Part shown: piece after piece, positions 215 through 16,668 of the stretch | Numbering within the stretch: position 1 is the stretch's first letter | Layout: each line of letters opens with the position of its first letter | Assembly (NCBI GenBank): GCA_045660945.1 | Contig: JAZRET010000067.1 | Coordinates: 1 to 52,055 of the forward strand | DNA from: Congzhengia sp. | Lineage (GTDB): Bacteria > Bacillota > Clostridia > UBA1381 > UBA9506 | Direction of reading: 5' to 3' | Length of the DNA stretch: 52,055 bases | The notes under the pieces: generated by a model | Told to the model about the DNA's origin: nothing | Databases searched by the model: none | The model's input: the letters and a program-made list of their open reading frames with translations, nothing else | Position numbers and translations under genes: made by a program

Positions 215-499
215 ATGCCAGCACTTGTAATGACTAAAAATCTTCAGTTGTGGATGGTGGTTAAAATCTACAACGAAGGCGGTAGCGATGAACTTTCTGA
301 CGAACCTATGGCTGTATTCTTTGATGAACCCAGTGCAATAGATTACAGACAGAAGTTATACCGCAAAATGATTAACGAAGGTATCGAGTGGATTATAGAT
401 TGCCACGGTAGCGAACTAATGCCCGACTGGGATACCGATGACGTAGAATACTACTACGCAATTAAAAAAGGAAAACTTATGGAGCCAAACAATGATTAA
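215..499 (+). CDS. hypothetical early protein
   Basis: 94 aa acidic ORF, AAGGA RBS, packed between neighbours. Confidence 0.7.
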   Translation: MPALVMTKNLQLWMVVKIYNEGGSDELSDEPMAVFFDEPSAIDYRQKLYRKMINEGIEWIIDCHGSELMPDWDTDDVEYYYAIKKGKLMEPNND

Positions 500-1535: not shown

Positions 1536-1556
1536 AGGAGACTAAAATGACTGTAA
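1527..1556 (+). repeat. 30-bp exact direct repeat (second copy at 51652-51681)
   Basis: GCAGCATAAAGGAGACTAAAATGACTGTAA at both sites. Confidence 0.85.
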
Positions 1557-2875: not shown

Positions 2876-2888
2876 AGGAGACTAAACT

Positions 2889-4082
2889 ATGTGTGTTATT
2901 ATTGCTAAACCAAAGGGTGTCGACCCGTTAAAACGAGAATACTTTGAGAACGCGTGGGCGCACAATTCTCAAGGCGGTGGTGTTGTCTGGAAAGAAGACA
3001 ACGGCGAAGTGATGATGCAAAAAGGATTTATGGATAAAGATACCTTTTTGGCGAAACTTGACGAAATAAACCAAAAAGATACTGCGTTCATAGCGCATTT
3101 TAGGATAAAATCAGTTGGCGAAGTGAACCCTGAGAATACGCACCCGTTTGCGATGTCTCATGTGACGTTCGCCCATAATGGAACTATTAGTTCTATTAAG
3201 CCGATTGAAGGTAAAACAGATTCAGAGACGTTTGGTTTGTGGTTCTTGAAAGACCGTTCAATGAAATGGATTAAAGACAATTCATTATTGTTGGAATTGG
3301 CATTAGGAACGAGCAAGTTTGCGTTAATGGATAACAAGACAGGCGAAATACATATCTTGAATCGTGAATACGGACAAGAACGCGATGGCGCGTGGTTCTC
3401 AAACAGTTCTGCGTTCCCTTATGTCGCACCAAAGACGACTTCAAGTGCGTATTCTGGTGGGTATTGGAGAGGAAATACTTATTACAGTAGCCACTATGAT
3501 GACGATTATGATTGCCTTTCTTGTAACAGGGATAGTGTAATAAAAGCAAACAAACAGTTCGGGACAAAAGGTTATACACACGCATACGCAGAATACGATA
3601 ACGAACGCGGATGCTTTGTATATACCGCATCAAAGAGTCCTGTGTTCTGTGCGTATTTAAGTGGGGCTTTTGTTGAGAACCGCAGGGGCTTTTGGACACT
3701 TGATAAGAAATACCAACCGTTGGATTCTTTCAAGGATATGCCAAAAGAAATGAAACGACCCATCAACAAAGTGTTGGGGACATATACACAATATATGTGT
3801 AAATGTTTGCGTGAATATTACAGAGCGGATTTTGATTCGATTTTAGAACGGTCTGAAAACGAACAAGAGATTTCTGCGCTGTATTGTTTGTTGGATGTGT
3901 GCCGTAGATTGGTGCGTGCTGGTAAAACCATAAACGAAGATACATTGGACAAAATGTTATTGGAACGCGCACCTTCATACAACGCGGACAAATCTGCGTT
4001 CTTAATATACCTTGAAGGTTATGTGACAGATTTGCTTGACGACCTGTATCCAGAACGCAAAGCATTGATTTTGGCTGTGTAA
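2889..4082 (+). CDS. class II (Ntn) glutamine amidotransferase with C-terminal extension
   Basis: N-terminal MC nucleophile, HFR, NTHPF, HNG and TDSE motifs. Confidence 0.88.
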   Translation: MCVIIAKPKGVDPLKREYFENAWAHNSQGGGVVWKEDNGEVMMQKGFMDKDTFLAKLDEINQKDTAFIAHFRIKSVGEVNPENTHPFAMSHVTFAHNGTISSIKPIEGKTDSETFGLWFLKDRSMKWIKDNSLLLELALGTSKFALMDNKTGEIHILNREYGQERDGAWFSNSSAFPYVAPKTTSSAYSGGYWRGNTYYSSHYDDDYDCLSCNRDSVIKANKQFGTKGYTHAYAEYDNERGCFVYTASKSPVFCAYLSGAFVENRRGFWTLDKKYQPLDSFKDMPKEMKRPINKVLGTYTQYMCKCLREYYRADFDSILERSENEQEISALYCLLDVCRRLVRAGKTINEDTLDKMLLERAPSYNADKSAFLIYLEGYVTDLLDDLYPERKALILAV

Positions 4083-4186: not shown

Positions 4187-4639
4187 ATGAAAGTAATGAA
4201 AGGCATCTTGGTCAATCACACTGTCAAAACACCAGATTGTGCAGAACAACGCTTCTACACGACAACGGTTGAAGACGTTAAAAAAGACGACGTGTTCGCT
4301 GTGTGGGCGCACGGTAAATTGGCTTATTTTAAGGTCAAGGCAGTGATGGAAACTTATGAATACTTGCCGAGCGAAAATGCTGGTGTAAAGTTGGAAGATG
4401 TTTCCGTAGCATTGAACCGTATTGACTTTAAGGCATATACTGTGTCGAAGAAAGTCTTGGAAAAGACGAAACGCATCAGAGCGTGTATTGCGGAGCGTTT
4501 GGCTGAAGCGAAAGAATCTCAACAGATTGCTGAGCTTATTAAAACGGCAAACACGACTGAACGCAAAGCCGAAATTAAGGCTTTACAAGACCAACTTAAA
4601 GCGTTGGCTGAAAACCCAGAGTCAGTTCTGGAAGACTAA
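4187..4639 (+). CDS. hypothetical protein with coiled-coil C-terminus
   Basis: 150 aa ORF with AAGGAG RBS. Confidence 0.75.
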   Translation: MKVMKGILVNHTVKTPDCAEQRFYTTTVEDVKKDDVFAVWAHGKLAYFKVKAVMETYEYLPSENAGVKLEDVSVALNRIDFKAYTVSKKVLEKTKRIRACIAERLAEAKESQQIAELIKTANTTERKAEIKALQDQLKALAENPESVLED

Positions 4640-4640
4640 A

Positions 4641-4669
4641 AATAAGTCCCCCACAGGGGACTTTATTTT
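4641..4669 (+). terminator. probable intrinsic terminator
   Basis: AAGTCCCC-caca-GGGGACTT followed by TATTTT immediately after the stop codon. Confidence 0.65.
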
Positions 4670-4671
4670 GC

Positions 4672-4717
4672 GGTAGCATCGATTTCCTGTCATTAAAAAC
4701 CTTTAACGGTGCTACCA
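4672..4717 (+). ncRNA. hairpin RNA with anti-SD/anti-AUG loop
   Basis: 10-bp stem GGTAGCATCG/CGGTGCTACC plus A; the loop is the reverse complement of AAAGG-TTTTTA-ATG-ACA-GGA-AAT. Confidence 0.55.
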
Positions 4718-4736
4718 CATAATAAAGGAGACTAAA

Positions 4737-5117
4737 ATGTTTAGATGTAATATATATTTGGAAACACTAGATAAAAAGCGTTGGTATATTGACCAAACTT
4801 GCCGTTGCGAACGGGATTTGCATATAACAAAAGGATACGGATCGCCGTTCTATGTGCCAGTTGATATTGCCGACCAACCAAGATCGTCTTATACATTTTT
4901 AACGATGCGCAATATGATGCTAAACTGTATAAACACAGGACTAAAATTCTTAAAATGTCGAATAGATGATTTTAAGATTGATGTTCGCTCAGACGGTTAT
5001 ACGCATTTGGATAAAAAAGAACGGATGAGAATTAGCAGGTTTATAAAAAAAGAATTTGAAAGCATCAAAAATGATGTAAAGTTCATAAATAAAACACTGG
5101 GGGCGCAAAATGCTTAG
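4737..5117 (+). CDS. hypothetical protein
   Basis: ORF with AAGGAGACTAAA RBS. Confidence 0.75.
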   Translation: MFRCNIYLETLDKKRWYIDQTCRCERDLHITKGYGSPFYVPVDIADQPRSSYTFLTMRNMMLNCINTGLKFLKCRIDDFKIDVRSDGYTHLDKKERMRISRFIKKEFESIKNDVKFINKTLGAQNA

Positions 5118-5562
5118 GATTTGCTTTGCTATCGATACACTTGATAGGCACTACAGGTATTTAACGAGCCCTTCTTGTGCTATGCGACAAATGGAAATAG
5201 AAACATACAACATAAAAAACTACGATGAAAACTTTATCGAAAACAAACTTGTGTGGTATAGTTTCTACGATTTTGATTTAGAAGACGAAGATTTAATTCA
5301 ATTCTTCGACAAAGCGTGCATAAAAGAAGGACTTAAAATATTGCCAGTTCCAGTCGAGGCAATAAAACTTGACGAGGTTGTAGAAATCTTCAAAAGATTC
5401 GGACAGTTTTTAGCAAAACATAAAGAGTTTGAAGGAAAGATTCTGCCTTATCTGATAACAGAAGACGGAATTATGAAAGATGGGAAATACGGCTTGGTTC
5501 ATAATTCAACGGACACAAGCGAAAATACATCGGGCGGTATAACTACACCACCAACACGATAA
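5110..5562 (+). CDS. hypothetical protein
   Basis: 150 aa ORF overlapping the previous stop. Confidence 0.7.
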   Translation: MLRICFAIDTLDRHYRYLTSPSCAMRQMEIETYNIKNYDENFIENKLVWYSFYDFDLEDEDLIQFFDKACIKEGLKILPVPVEAIKLDEVVEIFKRFGQFLAKHKEFEGKILPYLITEDGIMKDGKYGLVHNSTDTSENTSGGITTPPTR

Positions 5563-5620
5563 ATCGCGTTGTATGGGCAAATAAATGCGTGTAATCGCTA
5601 TTTAACAAACGGAGGATGCT

Positions 5621-6049
5621 ATGCATATGGTATTTATACAGAAAAGAATCGATAAAAAGATAGTTTTTTGGACAACTAACCTTAAACCGACAGATAGTAT
5701 CAACAACGCGGCTCGCTACAACGGCTTTGATTCAATTTCTTCGGGTGATCTTAGTGTTATAAGAACTTGGATTCGTGACGAACACACTAGAGCAAACTTT
5801 AATGCCGTTATTGTTCCTGTTTGCGTAGACGAAGATACTGTCGAACCAAATGAACTTGGTGAGCCACAAGAACCAACAACAACTTGCAACCATTCTCTGA
5901 TGACAGAAAACATAAAGGCTTCTTTAAGAAGAGGTCTTCTGCCCGGATTCGATATAGCCAATTACATCGACTTTACAACAGATACAGACCTTGTTCGTAG
6001 AGTCCAAAAAATGGAAAAAGACAAATACGAAGAGCGCATTTCGTGGTAA
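5621..6049 (+). CDS. hypothetical protein
   Basis: 142 aa ORF with GGAGG RBS. Confidence 0.7.
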   Translation: MHMVFIQKRIDKKIVFWTTNLKPTDSINNAARYNGFDSISSGDLSVIRTWIRDEHTRANFNAVIVPVCVDEDTVEPNELGEPQEPTTTCNHSLMTENIKASLRRGLLPGFDIANYIDFTTDTDLVRRVQKMEKDKYEERISW

Positions 6050-6228
6050 TGCGCTCACGCGCGCGCACGCGTCTACAGAGTGTCCGTAAATTTATTTATT
6101 TATTTATTTAGGGATAAATAAATAAATTTACTCCTAGACCATTAAGAGACCAGATCCAAAGAAAGTCTAGAAAGATAAAAGAAAGAAATATATAAAGAAA
6201 GAAAAACGAAAGAAACGAAAGAAAGGTA
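6050..6228. other. candidate replication origin
   Basis: Non-coding; CG-alternating tract, AT-rich inverted repeat GTAAATTTATTTATTT/AAATAAATAAATTTAC and tandem AAAGAAAG / ACGAAAGAA repeats. Confidence 0.45.
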
Positions 6229-6242
6229 AGGAGACTAAAACG

Positions 6243-6815
6243 ATGGACAACGCAGTGAGATATATCAACAAGATATGTGAACTGTATAACCTTTCAGAGG
6301 ATACAAAAAAGACAATGTTAAAATACATAGACAAGGTTGTGAGGATGCTTGGCGATTTTACCTGGACGGAAATCGAGTCTGCTATCGCTTGGTATTACGC
6401 AAACCGTTCGCAGACCAAACAGCCACGACTTATTGAATTGAATTCGTGGTTGCGTGGCAGAAAGAAACCTGTTCAAAGACAGCCTGCCGAGGAACTGCCA
6501 CCAGCGAAACCTGCAACAGGTATTAGACAAATACAGGATTGTTTTTATACCGTTTGCAAGACTGCACACATACAGGGAATAGCGGGTGCTTACGGGTTTG
6601 AGTATTTTAATACCGTTGAAAAGTTGCCTACTGGCGACTCAGCCGCCATAATTGACAAGAACGGCGTCCCAACACTTGTCGTAAAACGATGGTTTTGGGA
6701 AGATGCTGTTAAACTTGCAAAAGAACAATACCCAGATAGGTTTGCACCGTTCAAAGGGATTACCTTTTGGGAGGAATGTGCGCTGGCTTACAAACTGGGT
6801 GTGCTACAACTATAA
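6243..6815 (+). CDS. hypothetical protein, possibly helicase loader/inhibitor-like
   Basis: N-terminal helical segment (LGDFTWTEIESAI...PRLIEL) reminiscent of phage P/G39P-like proteins; next to the candidate origin; function uncertain. Confidence 0.4.
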   Translation: MDNAVRYINKICELYNLSEDTKKTMLKYIDKVVRMLGDFTWTEIESAIAWYYANRSQTKQPRLIELNSWLRGRKKPVQRQPAEELPPAKPATGIRQIQDCFYTVCKTAHIQGIAGAYGFEYFNTVEKLPTGDSAAIIDKNGVPTLVVKRWFWEDAVKLAKEQYPDRFAPFKGITFWEECALAYKLGVLQL

Positions 6816-6824
6816 GGAGATGTT

Positions 6825-7031
6825 ATGTCGACAAGAAAAAAAGTAAAAATGACTGTTTTTTCACTTTTGCTATTGCTTATCGGGTTCTTTACTGGTAGGT
6901 TTATAGCGAACAGGGGCTGTGATGCGCGTTGCGATAGCGACATACGGGATATCGAAGAAGCCGTTATTAAGATTATTCACAACCCACACAATTGTATTTC
7001 TATCTGCAACAAACAATGTGGATGGGAATAA
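6825..7031 (+). CDS. small membrane-anchored Cys-rich protein
   Basis: AAGGAG RBS, hydrophobic N-terminal segment, several Cys. Confidence 0.6.
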   Translation: MSTRKKVKMTVFSLLLLLIGFFTGRFIANRGCDARCDSDIRDIEEAVIKIIHNPHNCISICNKQCGWE

Positions 7032-7036
7032 ACGAG

Positions 7037-7430
7037 TTCGTTACAGGGGTTTGTAACGATATTGTCCAAAATGTTTGTCTAATTTGACATTTTGAGCATG
7101 TTTGGTGGAATGATTTGGATGCAAACATTCCATCGCCTAGGAATAGATAGGCGACTCCTTTTCTTGCGAATAGTGCGTATGTTGATCTATTCCAATACGC
7201 ACAAGGTTGTGGACGCAAGTAAAAAGTTTCCACAACCGACTTTTATAGGGGGCGTTGTTTTCTTCATTCTCTCTCGTTTCAGAACGCTCCCTGCCAAATG
7301 CGAGATACCTGTTCGACTGGAAGACAGTTAGAGCAGAGAAAAATATCTCGCACCAAGTTTTGGATGGGGCTATATGGAACATTGAGCGTGTCTACGCAAC
7401 CTAACGGCGTTTGTTTCTGACTGCCCTATC
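7037..7430 (+). ncRNA. tandem array of hairpin RNAs upstream of the tRNAs
   Basis: Back-to-back stems at about 7037-7058, 7067-7094, 7104-7134, 7140-7194, 7205-7237, 7246-7296, 7299-7355 and 7363-7430; several end in CCA. Confidence 0.6.
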
Positions 7431-7432
7431 AC

Positions 7433-7508
7433 TGACCCGTAGTTCAATGAGCAGAACGATCGGCCGTTAACCGATAGGTTGCTGGGGCGGAGCCAGCCGG
7501 GTCAGCCA
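7433..7508 (+). tRNA. tRNA-Asn(GTT), non-canonical T loop
   Basis: Acceptor TGACCCG/CGGGTCA-G-CCA; anticodon arm ATCGG-CCGTTAA-CCGAT; T arm GCTGG-GGCGGAG-CCAGC. Confidence 0.85.
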
Positions 7509-7510
7509 GA

Positions 7511-7586
7511 TGTCCAGTAGGTCAACGGTTTAGACCGACAATCTGATAAGTTGTAGACGCAAGTTCGACTCTTGCCTGGACAACCA
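7511..7586 (+). tRNA. tRNA-Ile(GAT)
   Basis: Acceptor TGTCCAG/CTGGACA-A-CCA; anticodon loop CTGATAA; canonical TTCGACT T loop. Confidence 0.93.
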
Positions 7587-7601
7587 ACTAAAGGATTAGT
7601 T

Positions 7602-8033
7602 ATGAAAGCGGATTATCTTTTTGTCCCACACACAAAGACAGGGCAAAGGCTACATAGAAAAATTGCGGAACAAAAGGTCGGAAGAAAACTTGAGTATAAC
7701 GAATGTGTGCACCATATAAACGGGGATAAACACGATAACCGACCAGAAAATCTTGCTATTACAACAAGATCTTCGCATAGCAGGGAACACGCAAAAGAAT
7801 ATTGGGCTAAAAAGACAAAACAAGAAAGAGTATTGTTAACAAAAAAACTTGTGGCTGAATCTTCAATAAAAAACAGAAGATGCGTTGCGTGTATAAACGA
7901 TAAAGGCGGTATTGTTAAAAAGTTTGATGCTATAAAAGATACTGCCGCTTGTGGTTTTGACCCACAACATGTATGTCAGTGCTGTAAGGGGCACAGGAAG
8001 ACACATAAAGGGTTCAAGTGGGTGTATGTATAA
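7602..8033 (+). CDS. HNH homing endonuclease with NUMOD1-like C-terminal DNA-binding domain
   Basis: HRKIAE...VHHINGDKHDNRPENL...H..EH; C-terminal CCKG..KTHKGFKW; start ATG 7602 after AAGGA. Confidence 0.88.
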   Translation: MKADYLFVPHTKTGQRLHRKIAEQKVGRKLEYNECVHHINGDKHDNRPENLAITTRSSHSREHAKEYWAKKTKQERVLLTKKLVAESSIKNRRCVACINDKGGIVKKFDAIKDTAACGFDPQHVCQCCKGHRKTHKGFKWVYV

Positions 8034-8040
8034 TAGTTTT

Positions 8041-8101
8041 TGCGGGCGGTGCATATAAAATCCTTATGACACTCTGCGTATAGTCATTACCGCCCGCGCC
8101 A
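8041..8101 (+). ncRNA. CCA-terminated hairpin RNA with anti-SD/anti-AUG segment
   Basis: Stem TGCGGGCGGTG/TACCGCCCGCG plus CCA; internal CATATAAAATCCTT is antisense of AAGGA-TTTTAT-ATG. Confidence 0.55.
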
Positions 8102-8109
8102 AAGATTCG

Positions 8110-8213
8110 GGTATTCCGTCCTATGATGGCTCTGCAGGGCTTCAGCCCTTCGCCTAGGAGAATACCAGATAGGTTGGTGTTAGTTCCCAACCGCTCGGCG
8201 GAGCAATCCGCCA
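8110..8213 (+). ncRNA. unclassified structured RNA
   Basis: GGTATTC/GAATACC enclosing TCCTA/TAGGA and AGGGC-ttca-GCCCT; then GGTTGG/CCAACC and GGCGGA-gcaa-TCCGCC-A. Confidence 0.45.
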
Positions 8214-8222
8214 AAGATTACC

Positions 8223-8296
8223 GCAACGGTAGTTAAATAGTATAATATATCCTTGCCAAGGATAAGTTCTCGGAGCGTAACCGGGTCGTTGCACCA
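8223..8296 (+). tRNA. tRNA-Gly(GCC), non-canonical T loop
   Basis: Acceptor GCAACGG/TCGTTGC-A-CCA; anticodon arm TATCC-TTGCCAA-GGATA; T loop AGCGTAA. Confidence 0.85.
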
Positions 8297-8314
8297 GTAT
8301 AAAAAAGGAAAAAA

Positions 8315-8803
8315 ATGATTTGTCGTTGTCCAAAATGTAAAAAAGAGTTTAATAATACTACTAACAGAACCTTTTGTTCTAGGCGATGCGCAAACTCTAG
8401 GGTTGTCTCAACGGAGACAAAAAAGAAGATAGGATTGGCATTACACGACAAATATAAAGAACCTACTTTTAGGGGTGCTATTGAAAAAGCACGCGAGAGG
8501 GCATTAAACAAGGTGCGTTGTAACAGATTGATGCGAAAGGTTAAAGCGAAAAACGGTCAAGAATTAGACATAACAAATAAAGACTTAGAAGAATACCGAA
8601 AAACACATTTTGTTTGTGAAATCTGCGGTAAAGCAGAAAGAGCAACTCATAATAAAAAGAGTATATCTAAGTTATGCTGTGACCACGACCATACAACATC
8701 TAAGTTTAGGGGACTTTTGTGTTCAAATTGTAATAGGAAACTTGGTTGGTATGAAACATACACAACACAAATAAGAGAATACCTACGAAGGGGCAAATTA
8801 TGA
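8315..8803 (+). CDS. endonuclease VII-domain homing-type endonuclease
   Basis: CEIC...DHDH.T.KFRGLLCSNCNRKLG; N-terminal Zn finger and SxETKKKI (NUMOD3-like) segment. Confidence 0.82.
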   Translation: MICRCPKCKKEFNNTTNRTFCSRRCANSRVVSTETKKKIGLALHDKYKEPTFRGAIEKARERALNKVRCNRLMRKVKAKNGQELDITNKDLEEYRKTHFVCEICGKAERATHNKKSISKLCCDHDHTTSKFRGLLCSNCNRKLGWYETYTTQIREYLRRGKL

Positions 8804-9027
8804 AGAAGGAAGAAAGGCTGGGAGCAATTAAAGTTTTTAATATTGACGGCAAACGGTTGCTCGGCACTGTCGAGGTTAACCTTGAGCCATACAATAAGAA
8901 AGGCAACTATATGCCAGCGCATACCACGATACAATTACCACAATGGCTGTGCGCTGAGATTTATAACCTTGTGTATGCCGAATACGCATCTAACTGTGGG
9001 GAGACAAAAGATGAAAGAGAAAAATGA
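8800..9027 (+). CDS. hypothetical protein
   Basis: ATGA overlap with the upstream gene. Confidence 0.6.
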   Translation: MKKEERLGAIKVFNIDGKRLLGTVEVNLEPYNKKGNYMPAHTTIQLPQWLCAEIYNLVYAEYASNCGETKDEREK

Positions 9028-9316
9028 TTACGGCATGTATTCGGGTGGTTATATTTGCGACCAATTAGACCGCCACGCGCTGATAACAATTCATATGCAG
9101 TTCCCAGAGACACGCCATATGGTTTTGGTAACAAAGACTGCTTTGATAACTTATGTGCGCCAATTATGCTCCAAGAAAGGTGTCACATTTACGATCTTTT
9201 GTGTTCACAAAGAAGGCGATAGTTATGTCGTAACAAACAGAATTAAACAAAACGACAGAATAATAGCGAAAGGGACATTTGAGTTTGTTTCCGCTACTAA
9301 CCACTGCGAGGTGTAG
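9011..9316 (+). CDS. hypothetical protein
   Basis: Start reassigned to ATG 9011 after GGGAG. Confidence 0.6.
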   Translation: MKEKNDYGMYSGGYICDQLDRHALITIHMQFPETRHMVLVTKTALITYVRQLCSKKGVTFTIFCVHKEGDSYVVTNRIKQNDRIIAKGTFEFVSATNHCEV

Positions 9317-9317
9317 C

Positions 9318-9554
9318 ATGTGGATAATAGGCGAGGATGTTTCGTGGGGCTTTAATTATGACCTAGCAGATATGATAGGCGTAAATAACGATATGTTAGT
9401 GTTTCATATGCGGGATTCTAACTGCCAGTATGTGTTGCAGTTCAAGGATAATTTAATGGCAAAAGCATACTGGGCGCGTATGGCGAACGCAAAGCAGGAA
9501 GGGGCAGAGAAATTCGTAATACCAAAAGGAGATTTGAAACATGAAAAGAAATAA
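9318..9554 (+). CDS. hypothetical protein
   Basis: Start ATG 9318 after GAGGT. Confidence 0.6.
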   Translation: MWIIGEDVSWGFNYDLADMIGVNNDMLVFHMRDSNCQYVLQFKDNLMAKAYWARMANAKQEGAEKFVIPKGDLKHEKK

Positions 9555-9906
9555 GATATACGAACCAGAAACTATTTACGATATCGCCAAGTGGCACCAA
9601 GAAACATTCCCTGATGCTACCCTTGATGGGCAAATCGATAAGTATGATGAAGAACAAAAGGAATTTATTGATTCAAAATACAAGGATGTTACTGAACTAG
9701 CAGACATGTTTATTGTTGCCTGCGGTATGACACGGTTCGATGCCTTCACTGCCATATGGTATTTGAAAGATGTTTACGATTGGGTTGAAGAGTGTTCTAT
9801 CTTAGAGCGCGATGTGGAACAGGCTGTCGCAAAGAAGATGGCTATCAACCGCCACAGGGTTTGGGAAAAGAAAGGTGGCTTATACAAACACATAAAGGAC
9901 GATTAA
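9541..9906 (+). CDS. MazG-like dATP/dGTP pyrophosphohydrolase (DUF550-like)
   Basis: W..ETFP, acidic EExxE and ELADMFIV, KMAINRHRVW motifs. Confidence 0.75.
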   Translation: MKRNKIYEPETIYDIAKWHQETFPDATLDGQIDKYDEEQKEFIDSKYKDVTELADMFIVACGMTRFDAFTAIWYLKDVYDWVEECSILERDVEQAVAKKMAINRHRVWEKKGGLYKHIKDD

Positions 9907-10196
9907 TGAAATGCCCATACTGTAACAGAGAACTACACTGTGGTGCACAATTAAACTCTGACGGGTTTATTGTTGAACTATACCAGTGTTCTAACCCAGA
10001 GTGCGAACCAACAGAATTCCTAGTTGGGTGTAAAGAGTTTTGGGATATACTAGGACAGAATAAACGCAAGCAACAGATGTTAGATGTGTTTCAAGAGTTT
10101 ATATCCAAATGGTATCTGAACGGGAATATTACAGACGAGCATCTAAGAAGATTAAAGAAAAGGATTAAGAATGCCAGACATTTCGATGTGCATTGA
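9906..10196 (+). CDS. Zn-ribbon protein
   Basis: MKCPYC...QCSNPEC. Confidence 0.65.
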   Translation: MKCPYCNRELHCGAQLNSDGFIVELYQCSNPECEPTEFLVGCKEFWDILGQNKRKQQMLDVFQEFISKWYLNGNITDEHLRRLKKRIKNARHFDVH

Positions 10197-10386
10197 CGAT
10201 AAATGCCCACTGCGGTTTAAGTGCCACAGGTTTACGGCTGAACCAGATTACTGGCAGTCGTTCTGTGCGTTCAAATACAATAATGGTTGTGATGCCTTCT
10301 GGGATAACAACGGTTATAAAAAAAGAAAAGGGTATAAGACAAAAATCTTTACAGAAGAAGGAGTGGATGATGGCGTTTCAAAATAA
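10171..10386 (+). CDS. small Cys-rich phage protein
   Basis: MPDISMC....CPLR..CHRFTA.P..WQS pattern seen in small phage proteins. Confidence 0.65.
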   Translation: MPDISMCIDDKCPLRFKCHRFTAEPDYWQSFCAFKYNNGCDAFWDNNGYKKRKGYKTKIFTEEGVDDGVSK

Positions 10387-10606
10387 AAACTTGTCTGTGA
10401 TTGCTTGCGCAAATGGTTTCACATTGTGGCACTATGTCGCACAAGAACCTTTGGCAGACTTGAGCAAGGTTGGTTACTTTGATAAAGTGTTCCATTTATC
10501 GGCAACAGGCGATATAATAATCCTTAATGGCGCAGACGGAACAGCAATTAAAACTATGGAACTGACCGATGACCGCCATATTAAACTAACCAAGTTAAAG
10601 GATTAA
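10370..10606 (+). CDS. conserved hypothetical protein (ANGFTLWHY family)
   Basis: MAF.N.NLSVIA.ANGFTLWHY...GYF...GDIII.N; recalled from alphaproteobacterial proteins; AAGGAG RBS. Confidence 0.7.
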   Translation: MAFQNKNLSVIACANGFTLWHYVAQEPLADLSKVGYFDKVFHLSATGDIIILNGADGTAIKTMELTDDRHIKLTKLKD

Positions 10607-10608
10607 CA

Positions 10609-10890
10609 ATGACGGAATTAAAATGTCCGTTTTGTGGGCAGAAATTACATAAAGATTCTGACGGTTATTACACCTGTTATACCGATAACTGCGGGTGTTG
10701 GGCAAACGGTGGCAACGGTGCAAGCGGTAGTGAATCACTATGGTTGACACTAATAACCATAAAGAAGAAACTTGATGCCTGTATAAGGGGGTTAGACCAA
10801 ATGACTTGGGGTTGTAATAGTTCTGATGCGGAATATTTATTAAAAGAAATTAAAGAAACAACAGCACTGGATCAAAAGGATGTGAAATGA
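10609..10890 (+). CDS. Lar-like Zn-ribbon protein
   Basis: MTELKCPFCG...TC....C. Confidence 0.6.
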   Translation: MTELKCPFCGQKLHKDSDGYYTCYTDNCGCWANGGNGASGSESLWLTLITIKKKLDACIRGLDQMTWGCNSSDAEYLLKEIKETTALDQKDVK

Positions 10891-11126
10891 TTCGCGGTAA
10901 AATGATTGAGTGTAAGTGTGCCGTGTGTGGCGAAAAGTTTATGGCAAGAGTTGCAGACCGTAATCGTGGTTGGGCGAAATGTTGTTCCAAGTCGTGTGCG
11001 GCGACATTGAGCAACAAAAAGACAGGCAAATACCGAAAACATTTAGCGTGCCAAAACAAAATGGATAATCTTGGTTATGAAGACGTAGATTATTACGATG
11101 ATAGTCATTTATTCGGTGACGAATAA
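10887..11126 (+). CDS. Zn-finger protein
   Basis: CAVCG..F.AR.AD..RGW.KCCSKSC. Confidence 0.7.
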   Translation: MIRGKMIECKCAVCGEKFMARVADRNRGWAKCCSKSCAATLSNKKTGKYRKHLACQNKMDNLGYEDVDYYDDSHLFGDE

Positions 11127-11189
11127 CAACACTGAAACAAAAGAACATTTTGCTGACGCCAGCAAAAAGATCAAAAAAAGGAAATAACG

Positions 11190-11543
11190 ATGCCAACAAG
11201 TATCATAGATAATGAAGCGTATCTTTGTGTAACATTTCGCGTGGCTTGCCCGGATAACAACTTTATGTATCCATTCGTGCTCCGCGAAGGTAACACAGAA
11301 GACCCTGTGTATGCGTGGACTACAGAAGCAAACGAAGCCAAGGTATGGGGAGACTTGGGCGACCAAGAATTCGTTAGGGTTATGGCAAAATACCCAGCCG
11401 CAGAAACCTGCTATATGGCTTTCTTAAGACCAATAGCGCCACGCCTATACAGCCGTGATTATCGGGAATACCCAAACGGGGCTGGCGGCGGCTACGGGAC
11501 GTATATGGCTCAAGAAGAAAGGAAACAACATGGTCTTATATAA
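11190..11543 (+). CDS. hypothetical protein
   Basis: 117 aa ORF with AAGGA RBS. Confidence 0.65.
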   Translation: MPTSIIDNEAYLCVTFRVACPDNNFMYPFVLREGNTEDPVYAWTTEANEAKVWGDLGDQEFVRVMAKYPAAETCYMAFLRPIAPRLYSRDYREYPNGAGGGYGTYMAQEERKQHGLI

Positions 11544-11748
11544 TGCAGAAGTTTGGCGTGATGTAATCTATGACGATATGTGGTCAATGATTAACCAATA
11601 TATTACCGCCAAGACAGGAATTCAACCAACGGTTCGGCTTACTGAACCAGAGCGTCAAACAATTCAAAATACTATCGATATAATTACCGATATTATTCTG
11701 GATAAAGTAGAACTAAAGGAGGAAAAGCGTGGCGAAGACGAAGCCTAA
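11530..11748 (+). CDS. hypothetical protein
   Basis: Start ATG 11530 after AAGGA. Confidence 0.6.
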   Translation: MVLYNAEVWRDVIYDDMWSMINQYITAKTGIQPTVRLTEPERQTIQNTIDIITDIILDKVELKEEKRGEDEA

Positions 11749-11898
11749 ATGGCTGTTTAGTGGTTGGCACTGCTGGTCCCGGTTTATGATCGGGTTGGAT
11801 TGGTGCTACACCAGACAAAACGGGCTGACGGAAATTGATTTCTTTTTCTTGTTTTGGGGCTTTGGTTGGGTAAAATACTTCCAACCAAGGAGAAAGAA

Positions 11899-11967
11899 AT
11901 GACGTTAGCCATAATAATTTGTGTTTGTGTAATACTTTTTTATATAACAAGACCAAAGGGGTATTAA
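11899..11967 (+). CDS. 22-aa hydrophobic peptide MTLAIIICVCVILFYITRPKGY
   Basis: AAGGAG RBS, single TM-like helix with basic tail; not in the ORF track. Confidence 0.5.
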   Translation: MTLAIIICVCVILFYITRPKGY

Positions 11968-11968
11968 A

Positions 11969-12238
11969 ATGAAGAAATTACTTACTGCCGCTGTATTGGC
12001 GACAACAATCGGAACAGCACAAGCGGTTCCAGCAATGACAAGACCAACAACACCAAGACCAACTTATAACTATGGTTATAATGTGGGTTACCATCATGGC
12101 AAAAATGATGCCTATAATAATGTGGCACGCACTGCGGTTATCGTGGGCGCTGTTGTTATAGCAGGTATTATTGTTTACCATTTGGGCGAAGAAAGCCGCT
12201 TTACAGCGAACGAAAAAGGTGTTGTTTACAGATTCTAA
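11969..12238 (+). CDS. secreted/membrane protein
   Basis: Signal peptide (MKKLL...AQA) and C-terminal TM segment. Confidence 0.7.
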   Translation: MKKLLTAAVLATTIGTAQAVPAMTRPTTPRPTYNYGYNVGYHHGKNDAYNNVARTAVIVGAVVIAGIIVYHLGEESRFTANEKGVVYRF

Positions 12239-12252
12239 ACAAGGAGTAGAAA

Positions 12253-12561
12253 ATGAAAAAGAAAGTAAAAGAAACGAAAGTAAAAATGATTAAAGAATCC
12301 GAGGCACAGGCGAAGTTTGATGCCTTGAAGGCTAATTCAATGCGTTCTTCTTACCACGCGGCTATGAGTATTCAAGAAGTTCTCGTCAACTTCCGCGAAT
12401 TTATTGAAGATGTTAAAGTTACGCAACCAAATGAACAAACCTTATTAAAGAAACGCGCAGACGAATTACTGGAATATATCGATGAACGCCAAATGTATGT
12501 CGAGGCCGTTAAAGCAATGACCAGTGAATACGTCCCAGAAGAGGAAAAAGATGAAGATTAA
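12253..12561 (+). CDS. hypothetical protein
   Basis: AAGGAG RBS, helical charged protein. Confidence 0.7.
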   Translation: MKKKVKETKVKMIKESEAQAKFDALKANSMRSSYHAAMSIQEVLVNFREFIEDVKVTQPNEQTLLKKRADELLEYIDERQMYVEAVKAMTSEYVPEEEKDED

Positions 12562-12895
12562 TGTAGGGGCAATTTACTCTACGAAATCTGAGAAATACCC
12601 ACGCGTTAGAGTTATTTCTGAGCGTGGGTGTAAAGTCCATATTGAAAAGCGCAAGGTAATGCGCCTAGGCGTTGAGTACACCGAAAAGCACGAAATATAT
12701 GAACCAGTAGGTTATTGCGTTCAACCGATTGGTTGCGATACAATGGCACCTGTGTTCTTTGTTGACCTTGATGGTGTTTACGACGTCGAAAACGGACTGT
12801 ATCTTGTTGAACAGATGAGCGAACCGGCCGAGAGGTATGTTCTACGAGAGAAATTGCCAAAAGAACAAAAACAAAACTTTACAACTGAAAAATAA
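12551..12895 (+). CDS. hypothetical protein
   Basis: Start ATG 12551 after GAGG. Confidence 0.65.
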   Translation: MKINVGAIYSTKSEKYPRVRVISERGCKVHIEKRKVMRLGVEYTEKHEIYEPVGYCVQPIGCDTMAPVFFVDLDGVYDVENGLYLVEQMSEPAERYVLREKLPKEQKQNFTTEK

Positions 12896-12905
12896 GTGCT
12901 ATAAC
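12878..12905 (+). promoter_or_regulatory. sigma70-type promoter upstream of the methylase
   Basis: TTTACA-16 nt-TATAAC with TG at the extended -10 position. Confidence 0.45.
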
Positions 12906-12924
12906 AACTCTAAAGGTAGCGAGA

Positions 12925-13710
12925 ATGATACAACTTGAACCGTGGATCCCTTATATGGGTAACAAAGCAAGCCTGTTAGGAAATATAGAGGCTACAATTA
13001 AACAACTGGCGATCCCAAACCCAACTTGCATCGTTGATGCGTTCTGTGGTGGCGGGTCGTTCGGTTACTATATGGCCACCCGCGGATACAAGGTTATCAT
13101 GAACGACTTAGACCCCGGTGTCATAAACCTTCATAAATCGCTTCAAATACACCCAGAACGGCTGGAACTGTTTAAGCAGGTAGCACCAACCAAGGATGAA
13201 TTTAAGGCGTGTGTGAACGGAAATAGCGATTATGACGCCTACATAAAATATATCTGGTCATTTGGCACCAAAGGTGACACCTACCTTACTTCGTTGGAAA
13301 ATGAAACCAACAAGATAGAAGAGTACTGGCGTGGGGAGGCTGAACCAAATTCAAGGGTTAAACACTTGGAAGACATTGTGCTTATGTATGCACATTGTAA
13401 GCCAGACATAACCTTTGTTAATGGGTCATATGAAGACCTAGAAATACCCGAAGGGGCATTGGTTTATGCTGACCCACCCTACATTAACACAGGCGAATAT
13501 CTTATGGATTCGTTCGACCACGGTAAGTTTTACCAGTGGTTGAAAGAACAAAAGGAAATCGTTTTGATTTCCGAGTACACTATGCCCGATGAGTTTCCAC
13601 TCATTGACGCATATACAAAAAACTGCGTAATGGCTGGCGCTGATGGTAGAAAAGCAACAATAGAAAAATTGTTTGCTAACCGTGAGTTGCCGTTATTGCG
13701 TTTATTCTAA
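12925..13710 (+). CDS. DNA adenine methyltransferase (Dam/D12 class)
   Basis: PYMGNK, DAFCGGGS (motif I) and YADPPY (motif IV). Confidence 0.9.
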   Translation: MIQLEPWIPYMGNKASLLGNIEATIKQLAIPNPTCIVDAFCGGGSFGYYMATRGYKVIMNDLDPGVINLHKSLQIHPERLELFKQVAPTKDEFKACVNGNSDYDAYIKYIWSFGTKGDTYLTSLENETNKIEEYWRGEAEPNSRVKHLEDIVLMYAHCKPDITFVNGSYEDLEIPEGALVYADPPYINTGEYLMDSFDHGKFYQWLKEQKEIVLISEYTMPDEFPLIDAYTKNCVMAGADGRKATIEKLFANRELPLLRLF

Positions 13711-13726
13711 CCCAAAGGAACAAAAA

Positions 13727-14164
13727 ATGAAACTTATATATCACTTGCGTGAGTATTTGCCTGGGCGTTACCAAGTTACAGCCAATATGCATGGCGTTTC
13801 TGGGCAACCAGATAATACTTACAAACTAAGCATAACCTGCGATGGTAGCAAATGCTTAACAATTGATCAGATCGACTCAAAAGTAAAAGCAGGCATTCGT
13901 TCTAGAATGTATATGGATAACAAACGCGATCCGCGTATCCCTTCTGCAACCGGCTTAACCGTGTTGTGGGATGAAGACCGCACAGATATGAATACCTTTG
14001 CCATTAAAAAGGCACCAAAGGTCGATTTGTCTGATTGTGTTTATGAAGTAACACAGGTTAGCGGTGTTTGGACTATTTGCAAACACGATGCGCCATTGCT
14101 TACATATGATGAAGCCACAGAATTGTTGTTTAAACAATTAACAAAAGGGGGCAATAATGAATAA
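13727..14164 (+). CDS. hypothetical protein (paralog of next gene)
   Basis: Start ATG 13727 after AAGGA; C-terminus aligns with the next ORF. Confidence 0.7.
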   Translation: MKLIYHLREYLPGRYQVTANMHGVSGQPDNTYKLSITCDGSKCLTIDQIDSKVKAGIRSRMYMDNKRDPRIPSATGLTVLWDEDRTDMNTFAIKKAPKVDLSDCVYEVTQVSGVWTICKHDAPLLTYDEATELLFKQLTKGGNNE

Positions 14165-14642
14165 ACAGGTTATTGTTTCAGCACAATACAAAATGTTAGA
14201 TAACTTTAGTTATATTGTGACAATTAAAGCAAAAAATGAACACAACGAACTTATTTTTGATGGCCAGCAAAAGTGTAAATTCCTTGGAAAAACACCGTAT
14301 TTGCCGCTGGATAGCAAAGAAAAGTTGGTAAAAAAGAACATAAGAAACATTCTTTACCATGCTAAACGCATAAGTTTGGGTACAAAGATTGTTACTTCTT
14401 TAACCCGTTATGGTGATATTCCACCACAGTTGGCCAACCCAGATGTGGAAATGCACGCAAAAGAAGGCTATTTTACCGGAAAAGATCCTAAAGCATACGG
14501 CGATTTGCGCGACCAGCGCATATGGCAAGTTGTTTTACTGAACGGCAACCCGACAATTGTCCGTGCTGAAAACCCACGCCTTTCTTCGCAAGAAGCAAAA
14601 GACCTTCTGTTAAAGAAAATATTAGGGGAAAACAATGGATAG
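14157..14642 (+). CDS. hypothetical protein (paralog of previous gene)
   Basis: Overlapping start; shared DL.D..Y/W.V....G..TI.....P.L...EA..LL.K.L motif. Confidence 0.7.
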   Translation: MNKQVIVSAQYKMLDNFSYIVTIKAKNEHNELIFDGQQKCKFLGKTPYLPLDSKEKLVKKNIRNILYHAKRISLGTKIVTSLTRYGDIPPQLANPDVEMHAKEGYFTGKDPKAYGDLRDQRIWQVVLLNGNPTIVRAENPRLSSQEAKDLLLKKILGENNG

Positions 14643-14646
14643 TTGG

Positions 14647-14676
14647 TTGGATGTGCTATACTGGTTTTGGTATAAT
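14647..14676 (+). promoter_or_regulatory. sigma70-type promoter of the recombination module
   Basis: TTGGAT-18 nt-TATAAT with extended -10 TG. Confidence 0.55.
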
Positions 14677-14708
14677 GTGCCCGCTAATGATTATTAAAGG
14701 AGTAAAAA

Positions 14709-15302
14709 ATGGCAGAAGTAAAAGTAAACTATTTTGAAGAATTGTATGAACAAGATGTCTCACAGTATGTCGAAAAGAAAAACGGCCTAAACTATGTGTC
14801 TTGGGCTTACGCTTGGGCAGGAATAAAAAAACTGCACCCAGATGCCACATACAAGGTGTATGAAACCCCAGAAGGTTGCAATTACTTCACAGATGGGCGT
14901 TTCTGCTGGGTTAAAACTGGCGTTACAGTAGAAGGCGTTGAACATATTGAATACTTGCCTGTGTTGGATTATAGAAACAAATCTATACCGTTAAACGCAG
15001 TGACTTCGTTCGATGTTAATACTTCTATTCAGCGTTCGTTAACCAAGGCTTGTGCAAGACACGGTTATGGTTTGAAAGTGTACGCAGGCGAAGACGTTGA
15101 AGCCGCAACTAAAGAAGCCCCAACGCCAATGACAGAAGCACAACGCGAAGAGTTGGTGCAATTGGGCGTTAATATTCCACAGTTGTGTGAATTCTTTAAG
15201 GTCAAAAGCCTTGATGAAGTAACTGAAGCAATGGCCAAAGCCGCTATAGATGCCAAGAAACGGAAAATGGCTAAAGCCCCTTTGGAGGAAAAAGATGCCT
15301 AA
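14709..15302 (+). CDS. sak: Sak/Rad52-like single-strand annealing protein (DUF1071)
   Basis: VEKKNGLNYVSWAYAW, LPVLDYRNK, FDVNTSIQRSLTKACA.HG.GL..YAGED. Confidence 0.88.
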   Translation: MAEVKVNYFEELYEQDVSQYVEKKNGLNYVSWAYAWAGIKKLHPDATYKVYETPEGCNYFTDGRFCWVKTGVTVEGVEHIEYLPVLDYRNKSIPLNAVTSFDVNTSIQRSLTKACARHGYGLKVYAGEDVEAATKEAPTPMTEAQREELVQLGVNIPQLCEFFKVKSLDEVTEAMAKAAIDAKKRKMAKAPLEEKDA

Positions 15303-15909
15303 ACAACCGCATTACGATTTCGATATCGAACAACAGACACCGGAGTGGTATGCCGCAAAACTTGGGATGTTCTCTGGCTCGACTTTTCACGTTTTCCTCG
15401 GTGACTCCAAAACCAAGGACGAAAAATTATGGGAAATCCTAGCCGAAAGACGTTACCAAGACTCTGATGCCGAAGAGTTCCTTGGGTTCTACACCGAAAG
15501 GGGCAAAACCTTAGAACACGAGGCAAGAAGAGTTTACCAAGTTGTTAACGAAGTCGAAGTACAGCAGGTTGGTCTTGTAGAAGACATGGAATATTTCCCC
15601 GGCTGGGTCGTCTGTTCCCCAGACGGCCTGGTTGGGGATGATGGAATAATTGAAATTAAATGCCTGGTTGCAAAGAACATGTTGCAATACACAGAAGGTA
15701 AGTATGCGGATGATTATTATATATCACCGCAATACAAGACCCAAGTGCAATTTAACTTGTTCGTTACGCAACGCCAATGGTGCGATTTCATTTACTATCA
15801 CCCACGCGTTGGCATCCGCGTGAAGCGCATATTCCGTGACGAAGAATATATAGAAAAAATTAAAAACGCATTAACAGAATGTATAAAGATTATAGAGGAA
15901 AGATTATGA
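15295..15909 (+). CDS. YqaJ/lambda-type exonuclease
   Basis: Q.TPEW, G..LE..AR, CSPDGLV, IEIKC, Y..QVQ. Confidence 0.9.
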   Translation: MPKQPHYDFDIEQQTPEWYAAKLGMFSGSTFHVFLGDSKTKDEKLWEILAERRYQDSDAEEFLGFYTERGKTLEHEARRVYQVVNEVEVQQVGLVEDMEYFPGWVVCSPDGLVGDDGIIEIKCLVAKNMLQYTEGKYADDYYISPQYKTQVQFNLFVTQRQWCDFIYYHPRVGIRVKRIFRDEEYIEKIKNALTECIKIIEERL

Positions 15910-16214
15910 TAACAGACGAAAACATTAGAGAATTCGTAAGACAGTTTAACACAGCGCAAACACAGGTTACACCACCGAACGAAATAACCACAAAGACTGG
16001 TGCAACATTTGTGTTTGGCGCCATGAATGGTTATTTGCACATGATGCGAACAGATAAAGACTATTCGACTGAAACTTACAATATTGTAAAAAATGCCTTC
16101 CAAAATGTGGTTGAATTCTTTACAATGGAATTAGATGTAGAGAACTTTGAAACGCGCGAGCAAAACAAAGAACTTGAATATATAAAATTCCCGGAGGAAA
16201 AAAATAATGATTAG
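15906..16214 (+). CDS. hypothetical protein
   Basis: ATGA overlap, GAGG RBS. Confidence 0.65.
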   Translation: MITDENIREFVRQFNTAQTQVTPPNEITTKTGATFVFGAMNGYLHMMRTDKDYSTETYNIVKNAFQNVVEFFTMELDVENFETREQNKELEYIKFPEEKNND

Positions 16215-16551
16215 TTTACACCACAGTTTTGTTATTGACCATATAGAAGATAAAAAAATACCAACGCGTAACGGCGACACTTTTGAATTCACAGAAGTGA
16301 CAATGTACACGAAGGGCAAATACCCAACTTGGTTGCAAGCACGCCTGGAAAGCCCAGACATGAAACTGCAACTGCTTGGTGGGGAAGAATATGCTATGGA
16401 TATCTCAGTTAGTTCGTGGAAATCAGACGATGGCCGTATATTCCCACGCTTCACTATTCGTAGCATTGTTGCGGTTAACCCTAAACAAGTGATCGATGCA
16501 CCAGCAGAGACACCAAGTTACGATTATGAAGGAGATGAGATTCCGTTTTGA
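16207..16551 (+). CDS. ssb: single-stranded DNA-binding protein
   Basis: OB-fold-sized, acidic tail ending DEIPF, located in the recombination module. Confidence 0.7.
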   Translation: MISLHHSFVIDHIEDKKIPTRNGDTFEFTEVTMYTKGKYPTWLQARLESPDMKLQLLGGEEYAMDISVSSWKSDDGRIFPRFTIRSIVAVNPKQVIDAPAETPSYDYEGDEIPF

Positions 16552-16578
16552 TCGTAAAATCAATGGTTTAGGTAAAGT

Positions 16579-16668
16579 TTGGTGCCGTCTAGAAAAATCC
16601 CTCCTACATTCTCCCCAGGAGCCTCCTTTCCTTCCTTTCATAAAACAGGCTCCACTAGACGGCACCAA
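16579..16668 (+). ncRNA. structured RNA with CU-rich anti-SD loops
   Basis: 14-bp stem TTGGTGCCGTCTAG/CTAGACGGCACCAA, inner GGAGCCT/AGGCTCC, loops CCCTCCTACATTCTCCCC and CCTTTCCTTCCTTTCAT. Confidence 0.6.

What the first reader, a model, noticed from the sequence alone, without database searches (positions are those of the whole stretch)
4672..16668. Dispersed family of hairpin sRNAs, mostly CCA-ended, with loops antisense to SD-spacer-AUG translation starts
Seen: unrelated stems of 9-14 bp enclose pyrimidine-rich loops whose reverse complements read as translation initiation regions. 4672-4717 gives AAAGG-TTTTTA-ATG-ACA-GGA-AAT; 7246-7296 gives GAGAGAGA-ATG-AAG-AAA-AC; 8041-8101 gives AAGGA-TTTTAT-ATG; 16579-16668 gives GGGGAGA-ATG and GAAAGGAAGGAAAGGAGG; 7140-7194 gives AAAAGGAGTCG. 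Where G-U pairs occur they favour the + strand as the RNA. All five finish in CCA, unpaired at 7296 and 8101 as in a tRNA minihelix, and three lie inside the tRNA cluster. I found no phage gene starting MTGN or MKKT. Inference: a phage arsenal of guide-like antisense RNAs, excised by tRNA-processing nucleases (RNase P accepts stem plus RCCA substrates), that silence particular host mRNAs such as defence genes.
Basis: partly seen in the sequence, partly recalled or inferred. Interest (0 to 1): 0.88.

Follow-up and report, generated by a model that had tools for sequence, protein, structure and literature searches.

The report
Phage RNAs copying a host regulator
A gut phage carries small hairpin RNA genes, most ending like a tRNA, and one repeats letter for letter the two loops of a predicted regulatory RNA of its likely bacterial host, as other phage types also do, so the phage likely uses these RNAs to block protein synthesis from chosen genes.

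Summary
Four of the five hairpins are real; the 7140-7194 stem is probably misdrawn. In a relative the stems change in pairs while the loops stay. The contig sits in a Clostridia-like genome bin but most likely infects Rs-D84 (Ca. Enterousia) alphaproteobacteria. New here: 16579-16668 carries 16- and 18-base exact copies of both loops of a chromosomal small RNA of those bacteria, which has its own promoter and terminator. The first loop recurs in unrelated stems in 4 of 8 relatives and in three other alphaproteobacterial phage records. The loops mirror ribosome-binding regions; SD-plus-AUG mirrors occur in 8 of 27 loops against 2.4 expected. The 16579 AUG is followed by a stop and is not conserved, so that loop is anti-SD, not anti-start. 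Targets are not established: no host genome or RNA data were available, host-fragment matches are weak, and three loops match the phage's own gene starts best. Best reading: trans-acting translation-blocking RNAs on tRNA-like scaffolds (0.55). Defence-gene targets have no support.

The parts
4640..4669 (+). GC-rich hairpin with A/T-rich flanks after the 4187-4639 gene (terminator-like)
   Evidence: sequence; kept in G041
4672..4717 (+). E1 hairpin, 25-base loop mirroring SD-spacer-AUG; CCA partly paired
   Evidence: z -3.9; passes strict SD+ATG rule; G041 has a hairpin of like size with another loop at this site; best own-genome start match is gene 39438-40061, 0 of 300 shuffles as good
7120..7242 (+). 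E2 domain: hairpins 7133-7154, 7173-7202 (loops complementary over 8 bases) and 7205-7234; single-stranded anti-SD stretch at 7153-7166
   Evidence: fold z -5.6; counterpart in G041 folds no better than shuffles
7246..7296 (+). E3 minihelix with unpaired CCA; pyrimidine loop mirroring a GA-repeat leader plus Met-Lys-Lys-Thr codons; shares 11 bases with host RNA loop 1
   Evidence: z -3.3; covarying stem in G041; like loops in G041 and G049
7299..7355 (+). CCA-ended structured non-tRNA element, no anti-SD
   Evidence: z -6.1; covarying stem in G041; strain variant
7363..7430 (+). conserved three-way-junction RNA of unknown kind
   Evidence: 12 of 23 predicted pairs change on both sides in 4 phages; no Rfam match
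7433..7508 (+). tRNA-Asn(GTT) with non-canonical T loop
   Evidence: Rfam 46.7 bits; ARAGORN only at lowered threshold
7511..7586 (+). tRNA-Ile(GAT)
7602..8033 (+). HNH endonuclease gene inserted in the array; absent in G041
8041..8101 (+). E4 minihelix with unpaired CCA; single strand 8052-8066 mirrors SD-spacer-AUG
   Evidence: z -2.9; one compensatory pair, loop kept in G041; passes strict rule
8109..8213 (+). two further CCA-ended non-tRNA elements (8109-8167, 8172-8213)
8223..8296 (+). tRNA-Gly(GCC) with non-canonical T loop
10367..10606 (+). small gene 54-60% identical to a gene of the host's chromosomal T7-like cluster; host evidence
   Evidence: tblastn E 1e-22 to 1e-25 in 5 of 5 host fragments
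16579..16668 (+). E5: 14-pair outer stem, 7-pair inner stem (16618-16624 with 16647-16653); 16598-16613 and 16623-16640 are identical to loops 1 and 2 of the host small RNA; CCA paired
   Evidence: z -6.3; covariation with G041; host RNA in L035, L038, L039

Best explanation
These hairpins are likely small RNAs that block translation by pairing their pyrimidine-rich loops with ribosome-binding regions, and the 16579 element holds exact copies of both loops of a predicted regulatory RNA of the likely host, an Rs-D84 alphaproteobacterium. Shown: covarying stems, kept loops, identity to the host RNA's loops, recurrence of loop 1 in other phage types, position in the tRNA transcript with encoded CCA for 7246 and 8041. 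Inferred: release by tRNA-processing nucleases and stabilisation by the stem, accumulation during infection, and pairing to mRNA. The borrowed loops would let the phage impose the host RNA's repression at will; the 7246-type loops would extend it to a host gene that begins Met-Lys-Lys, probably a secreted or surface protein. A minority of loops may instead be aimed at the phage's own genes.
For: Host RNA: promoter 11 of 12 consensus matches, two long-loop hairpins and a terminator on the pyrimidine strand, loops nearly invariant and stems different in 3 of 3 complete copies. Its neighbours are named Alphaproteobacteria or Ca. Enterousia proteins on contigs up to 1.2 Mb. The 19-base loop-1 pattern hit 10 viral-collection records: 3 host fragments, 2 relatives, 3 other phages, all 8 hairpin-enclosed, plus 2 copies of one marine phage where it lies in a gene end. 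The three other phages each encode GapR, found in only 1 of 14 control genomes, Caulobacter. G449 encodes a loop-1 RNA and a loop-2-like RNA separately, each after its own near-consensus promoter and before a U run; the 231-kb phage has loop 1 twice and loop 2 pieces. Loop-1-like hairpins sit at the 16579 site in G041, G043, G048, G049. SD-plus-AUG mirrors in 8 of 27 loops, 2.4 expected, P about 0.001. Three 7246-type loops (window, G041, G049) mirror a GA-repeat leader, a start codon and two Lys codons that differ only at third positions. Precedent for two independent anti-SD loops: AbcR1/2 (PMC8844928, passages).
Against: No target is shown. Against 69 host start regions the host loops' best energies are no better than shuffled loops (30 of 40 and 24 of 40 as good). 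The start of the host histone-like HC2 gene ranks first or second in all 5 fragments for host loop 1, the 7246 loop and the G049 loop (2 of 120 shuffles each), but most shuffled loops also prefer it and the window's own 16579 loops do not stand out (59 and 47 of 120). The 8041 match to the host capsid-gene start is 9 of 600 unconstrained but 50 of 120 at family level. The 27 loops were partly chosen by eye and include kin, so P is too small. The mirrored AUG of loop 1 is followed by a stop and is absent in G043. A folding-energy test of strand was inconclusive (15 of 26 for the pyrimidine strand). G044 lacks an element at the 16579 site, and none was found in G452, G453 or G456 by the scans.
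Confidence: 0.55

Rival explanations
1. The RNAs mainly time the phage's own programme by holding down translation of its own late or replication genes.
For: Of 20 loops tested against their own phage's gene starts, three beat all 40 shuffles (a fourth was the loop's own antisense frame): G048's second hairpin with its endolysin start (-24.6 kcal/mol, near-perfect), G449's loop-2 RNA with the neighbouring replication-type gene start (-22.0), and window 4672 with late gene 39438-40061 (-21.7; 0 of 300).
Against: The other 16 loops, including 7246, 8041 and both 16579 loops, are not beyond shuffles or only marginal. Endolysin and 39438-type starts of other relatives have no matching loop of like strength. 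It does not explain why several phage types keep the host loop letter for letter.
Confidence: 0.2
2. The loops are decoys for a host protein that binds the host RNA in a sequence-specific way (a toxin, Rho, S1 or a chaperone), as phage copies of type III antitoxin RNA are (recalled).
For: Whole 22-27-base loops are nearly invariant across hosts and phages, more than a short seed needs; the anti-AUG is dispensable; no convincing mRNA target was found.
Against: No toxin gene lies next to the host RNA; the other loops differ widely yet mirror starts more often than chance, which a single protein site would not predict.
Confidence: 0.14
3. Each hairpin acts in cis on the next gene or is only a processing spacer of the transcript.
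For: 4672 and 16579 lie directly before purine-rich ribosome-binding sites; host loop 2 pairs best in the window with the start of gene 16689 (-21.9).
Against: The same loop occurs before a tRNA, before other RNAs and as free-standing promoter-terminator units in other phages; the window's own loop 2 prefers other starts.
Confidence: 0.07
4. The working RNA is the purine-rich opposite strand: a start-stop minigene or GGA-rich decoy, like CreT RNA toxins or CsrB.
For: The opposite strand of loop 1 reads SD, AUG, UAG and has several GGA motifs; energy test of strand inconclusive. CreT toxins use an SD and mini-ORF (PMC10097628, passages).
Against: Promoters and terminators of the host RNA and of G449 face the pyrimidine strand; CCA ends and tRNAs are on that strand; G043 lacks the AUG; no cas gene among the host neighbours examined.
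Confidence: 0.04

Closest known systems
C4 antisense RNA of phages P1/P7 (and P4 CI RNA, recalled)
   Same: Phage RNA cut from a longer transcript by RNase P; its loops pair with a target and occlude a ribosome-binding site (PMC5320573, passages).
   Different: C4 is a three-stem RNA of temperate phages aimed at the phage's own immunity operon; here simple minihelices in a tRNA array of a phage with no prophage found, no Rfam C4 match, and loops shared with a host RNA.
AbcR1/AbcR2 anti-SD sRNAs of alphaproteobacteria
   Same: Two separate C/U-rich single-stranded motifs that silence many mRNAs at the ribosome-binding site (PMC8844928, passages); the Rs-D84 RNA has the same plan.
   Different: No Rfam match for the Rs-D84 RNA; its loops are 22-27 bases; the papers seen describe chromosomal RNAs, not phage copies.
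T4 RNA C and RNA D
   Same: Non-tRNA RNAs of unknown function in a lytic phage (PMC9697503, passages); position in the tRNA cluster and CCA ends are recalled.
   Different: No sequence match reported by Rfam; no anti-SD loops or host counterpart known to me.
Phage sRNAs acting on host mRNAs (lambda PreS, VP882 VpdS)
   Same: Phage RNAs that retune host gene expression (PMC12197685, first sixth of the text).
   Different: Hfq-dependent RNAs of temperate phages; not tRNA-like scaffolds, not copies of a host RNA's loops in the part read.
Chlamydia IhtA
   Same: A loop occludes the start codon of a histone-like gene (PMC4355289, abstract); the best host candidate here is also a histone H1-like gene.
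   Different: Host-only RNA; the target here is weakly supported.

Membership tests
C4/CI antisense RNAs | Match to the Rfam C4 models / three-stem fold | tested here: not met
   No hit at gathering score in the window or at E up to 10 in 4600-8400 and around 16579
C4/CI antisense RNAs | RNase P processing from a precursor | not testable with these tools
   Stem plus unpaired CCA at 7296 and 8101 fits; no RNA reads
C4/CI antisense RNAs | Loops pair with a cognate site in the same phage | tested here: inconclusive
   3 of 20 loops beat all shuffles on own gene starts
AbcR-type anti-SD sRNAs | Rfam family match | tested here: not met
   host RNA in L035, L038, L039 and the 16579 element
AbcR-type anti-SD sRNAs | Two single-stranded C/U-rich anti-SD motifs, own promoter and terminator | tested here: met
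   Met by the host RNA; the window copy has both loops but no promoter or terminator of its own was looked for at 16579
AbcR-type anti-SD sRNAs | Repression of many mRNAs by pairing at the ribosome-binding site | tested here: inconclusive
   Only 69 host starts available; energies not beyond shuffles
tRNA | Cloverleaf with anticodon arm | tested here: not met
   The five elements are not called by ARAGORN or Rfam
CreT-like RNA toxins | SD plus mini-ORF RNA beside cas genes, repressed by CreA | tested here: not met
   Promoter faces the other strand; no cas among neighbours scanned

The most novel reading that the evidence does not exclude
Lytic phages of several unrelated types have each captured the seed loops of one host master small RNA and mounted them, with evolved derivatives, on exchangeable tRNA-like scaffolds: a modular RNA kit that keeps host genes silent, possibly including the conserved T7-like (gene-transfer-agent-like) particle cluster beside the host RNA, from which this phage also holds a gene homologue.
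Probability: 0.3. Interest if true: 0.9.

Novelty: new variant of a known kind. Interest (0 to 1): 0.72.

Why it matters
CCA-ended non-tRNA genes in phage tRNA clusters are common and mostly without a known job (T4 RNA C/D). Here some have a readable function: their loops mirror ribosome-binding regions, and one is an exact copy of a host regulator's loops kept by several phage types. If right, phages take over a host small-RNA network by copying its seed, a route not found in my literature searches, and the copied loops point to which host genes matter in infection of an uncultured, widespread gut lineage. It also yields an uncatalogued Rs-D84 small RNA and a design for stable antisense RNAs.

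Tried and rejected
Bin genome G000 as host: its genes look Clostridia-like; longest loop matches are 12-16 bases; the loop-1 mirror is absent outside the phage contig at 3 mismatches and gives one 1-mismatch hit in 400 genomes of that class; no capsid relative in 40 kin genomes. Rfam: only tRNAs. Expression: no RNA holder listed; four contig sets were laid and show strain variation only. A looser 16-base loop pattern gave 32 matches in 31 records: 8 in tight hairpins, all known already, the rest unrelated. CreT-antitoxin idea: dropped, see rivals. Strand by folding energy: inconclusive. One search used a misregistered structure and is uninformative; one search replaced it. Alignment 81 misaligned the E2 domain. 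A planned script table of antisense ORF lengths and stem pairs was not run, so those points rest and on counts by eye. Plasmid and cultured-phage searches gave only distant hits. The original C4/RNase P paper was not held; PMC3014915 passages gave nothing on RNA C/D. No supplements were read.
Full report
Setting. The window is the whole 52-kb contig C67 of bin G000. It encodes a capsid, portal, terminase, Sak, YqaJ, lysozyme and an Rz-like spanin; the nearest cultured phage is Bdellovibrio phi1422 at 31% capsid identity, and over 100 uncultured relatives are seen as proteins. The bin's own genes look Clostridia-like (my reading), which fits badly with a spanin. Gene 10367-10606 is 54-60% identical to a gene in five fragments whose proteins are named Alphaproteobacteria or Ca. 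Enterousia and lie on contigs up to 1.2 Mb. I take Rs-D84 alphaproteobacteria as the likely host; the order name for Enterousia is from recall and a search listing.

Observation. The five sequences are present. Four fold far better than shuffles. The pattern alone is common (28 hits in the window), so I relied on relatives. G041 keeps the array: tRNAs Asn, Ile, Gly and six non-tRNA elements, joined by short spacers after CCA. By eye, stems of 7246, 7299, 8041 and 16579 change on both sides while the 8041 and 16579 loops stay. Contigs of other strains swap whole cassettes at CCA junctions. The 7140-7194 stem is better read as a loop-loop match between two hairpins, with its CCA in a loop. About half of the array elements have structured interiors and no mirror of a start.

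The key result. A 19-base pattern from the first 16579 loop hit 10 records. Three are not phage genes but host chromosome pieces: rlmD, the RNA, then on the other strand an HTH regulator, birA and a T7-like particle cluster with a histone H1-like gene. There the RNA has a promoter (11 of 12 matches), two long-loop hairpins and a terminator; stems differ among the 3 complete copies, loops hardly. Window 16598-16613 equals 16 bases of loop 1 and 16623-16640 equals 18 bases of loop 2 (read). Two hits are relatives of the window. Three are other phages: G448 (hairpin plus unpaired CCA, followed by another CCA element), G449 (loop 1 and a loop-2-like RNA as separate promoter-led units) and a 231-kb phage with loop 1 twice. 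None showed similarity to five window proteins in 6-kb flanks or came up among capsid relatives; G448 and G449 share recombination-type genes and may be kin; all three encode GapR. The last two hits are one marine phage where the match lies in a gene end, in line with chance. Among 8 relatives examined, G041, G043, G048 and G049 carry loop-1-like hairpins at the same site, three of them with unpaired CCA; G044 has none there, and none was found in G452, G453, G456. A looser pattern added no new lineage.

What the loops read. Of 27 phage loops, 19 mirror an SD core (15 expected from composition) and 8 mirror SD plus ATG at a usable spacing (2.4 expected, P about 0.001). The set was partly chosen by eye and holds kin, so this is support, not proof. 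Loop 1 mirrors AUG-UAG and G043 lacks the AUG, so it is better seen as two anti-SD halves. The 7246 loop shares 11 bases with loop 1; it, its G041 counterpart and a G049 hairpin at another site all mirror a GA-repeat leader, a start codon and two Lys codons varying at third positions, as expected if they aim at one protein-coding start. No such start was found in the 2.9 Mb held, apart from one loose match in G000.

Targets. None is established. In about 56 kb of host fragments (69 starts) the histone-like gene's start ranks first or second in all five fragments for loop 1 and first in all five for 7246, with 2 of 120 shuffles as consistent, but shuffled loops usually pick the same gene and absolute energies are unremarkable. 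The 8041 loop fits the host capsid-gene start in 3 of 5 fragments (9 of 600 shuffles; 50 of 120 at family level). Against the phages' own starts, 3 of 20 loops beat all shuffles, including 4672 with late gene 39438-40061 and a G048 loop with its endolysin start. Nothing points to defence genes.

Mechanism. Most likely the array and the intergenic hairpins are cut out of early or middle transcripts by tRNA-type processing (inferred from CCA, spacers and the C4 precedent in PMC5320573, passages), giving stable RNAs whose open loops pair with ribosome-binding regions, as AbcR1/2 do with two anti-SD motifs (PMC8844928, passages). Copying a host regulator's loops would let the phage enforce that regulator's repression. 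Confidence 0.55; rivals are self-regulation (0.2), protein decoy (0.14), cis or spacer role (0.07) and the opposite strand (0.04). Strand rests on promoters, terminators, tRNAs and CCA; the energy test was inconclusive. No RNA data were available.

Novelty. The elements fail Rfam membership for C4, AbcR and tRNA but would work like C4 and AbcR. Ten literature searches listed no report of lytic phages carrying copies of a host sRNA's loops on tRNA-like stems; the library lacks most subscription papers and I read passages or abstracts only. Earlier scan notes describe CCA-ended non-tRNA RNAs in other phages but not this sequence. Verdict: a real, uncatalogued RNA set, new variant of a known kind, interest 0.72.

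Noticed in passing
window 7363-7430; L001 11133-11200; L027 3514-3587; L028 2613-2690 (-): Conserved three-way-junction RNA in four phages, 12 of 23 pairs compensatory, no Rfam match; function unknown.
   Followed up: partly
L038 2936-3132, L035, L039: Uncatalogued chromosomal small RNA of Rs-D84-type alphaproteobacteria with promoter, a 5' hairpin, two pyrimidine-loop hairpins and terminator.
   Followed up: yes
L062, L063, L064, L070, L071: T7-like particle gene cluster (scaffold, histone H1-like HC2, capsid, tail, split terminase, portal) in the same order in five host fragments, beside birA and, in L064, dnaB: candidate gene transfer agent or domesticated prophage.
   Followed up: partly
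window 10367-10606: Homologue of the small gene that follows the capsid gene in the host cluster; also in G041, G044, G048. Possible decoy or interference gene.
   Followed up: partly
window 7433-7508 and 8223-8296: tRNA-Asn and tRNA-Gly have non-canonical T loops; G041 has a different tRNA-Ile(GAT) sequence at the same place.
   Followed up: no
window 7120-7242: Two hairpins with loops complementary over 8 bases (possible kissing loop) at the head of the array; a -35-like box at 7084-7089 but no promoter called by the scan.
   Followed up: partly
window 7602-8033: HNH/NUMOD endonuclease gene inserted after tRNA-Ile, absent in G041; an HNH-like gene also interrupts the tRNA region of G453.
   Followed up: no
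L027 3990-4350; L081 13000-13230 (-); L084 3300-3530: A longer structured non-coding stretch shared by the tRNA regions of G044, G452 and G453; not characterised.
   Followed up: no
L077 10511 (-); L089 8394 (+): Homologous short CCA-ended elements with a T-arm-like hairpin in G048 and G456.
   Followed up: no
G448, G449, G458: Three phage records with the host loop also encode the nucleoid protein GapR.
   Followed up: partly
window as contig C67 of G000: The phage contig is probably misbinned into a Clostridia-like genome.
   Followed up: yes
window 492-4082: Two amidoligase-like genes and a class II glutamine amidotransferase gene in a row.
   Followed up: no
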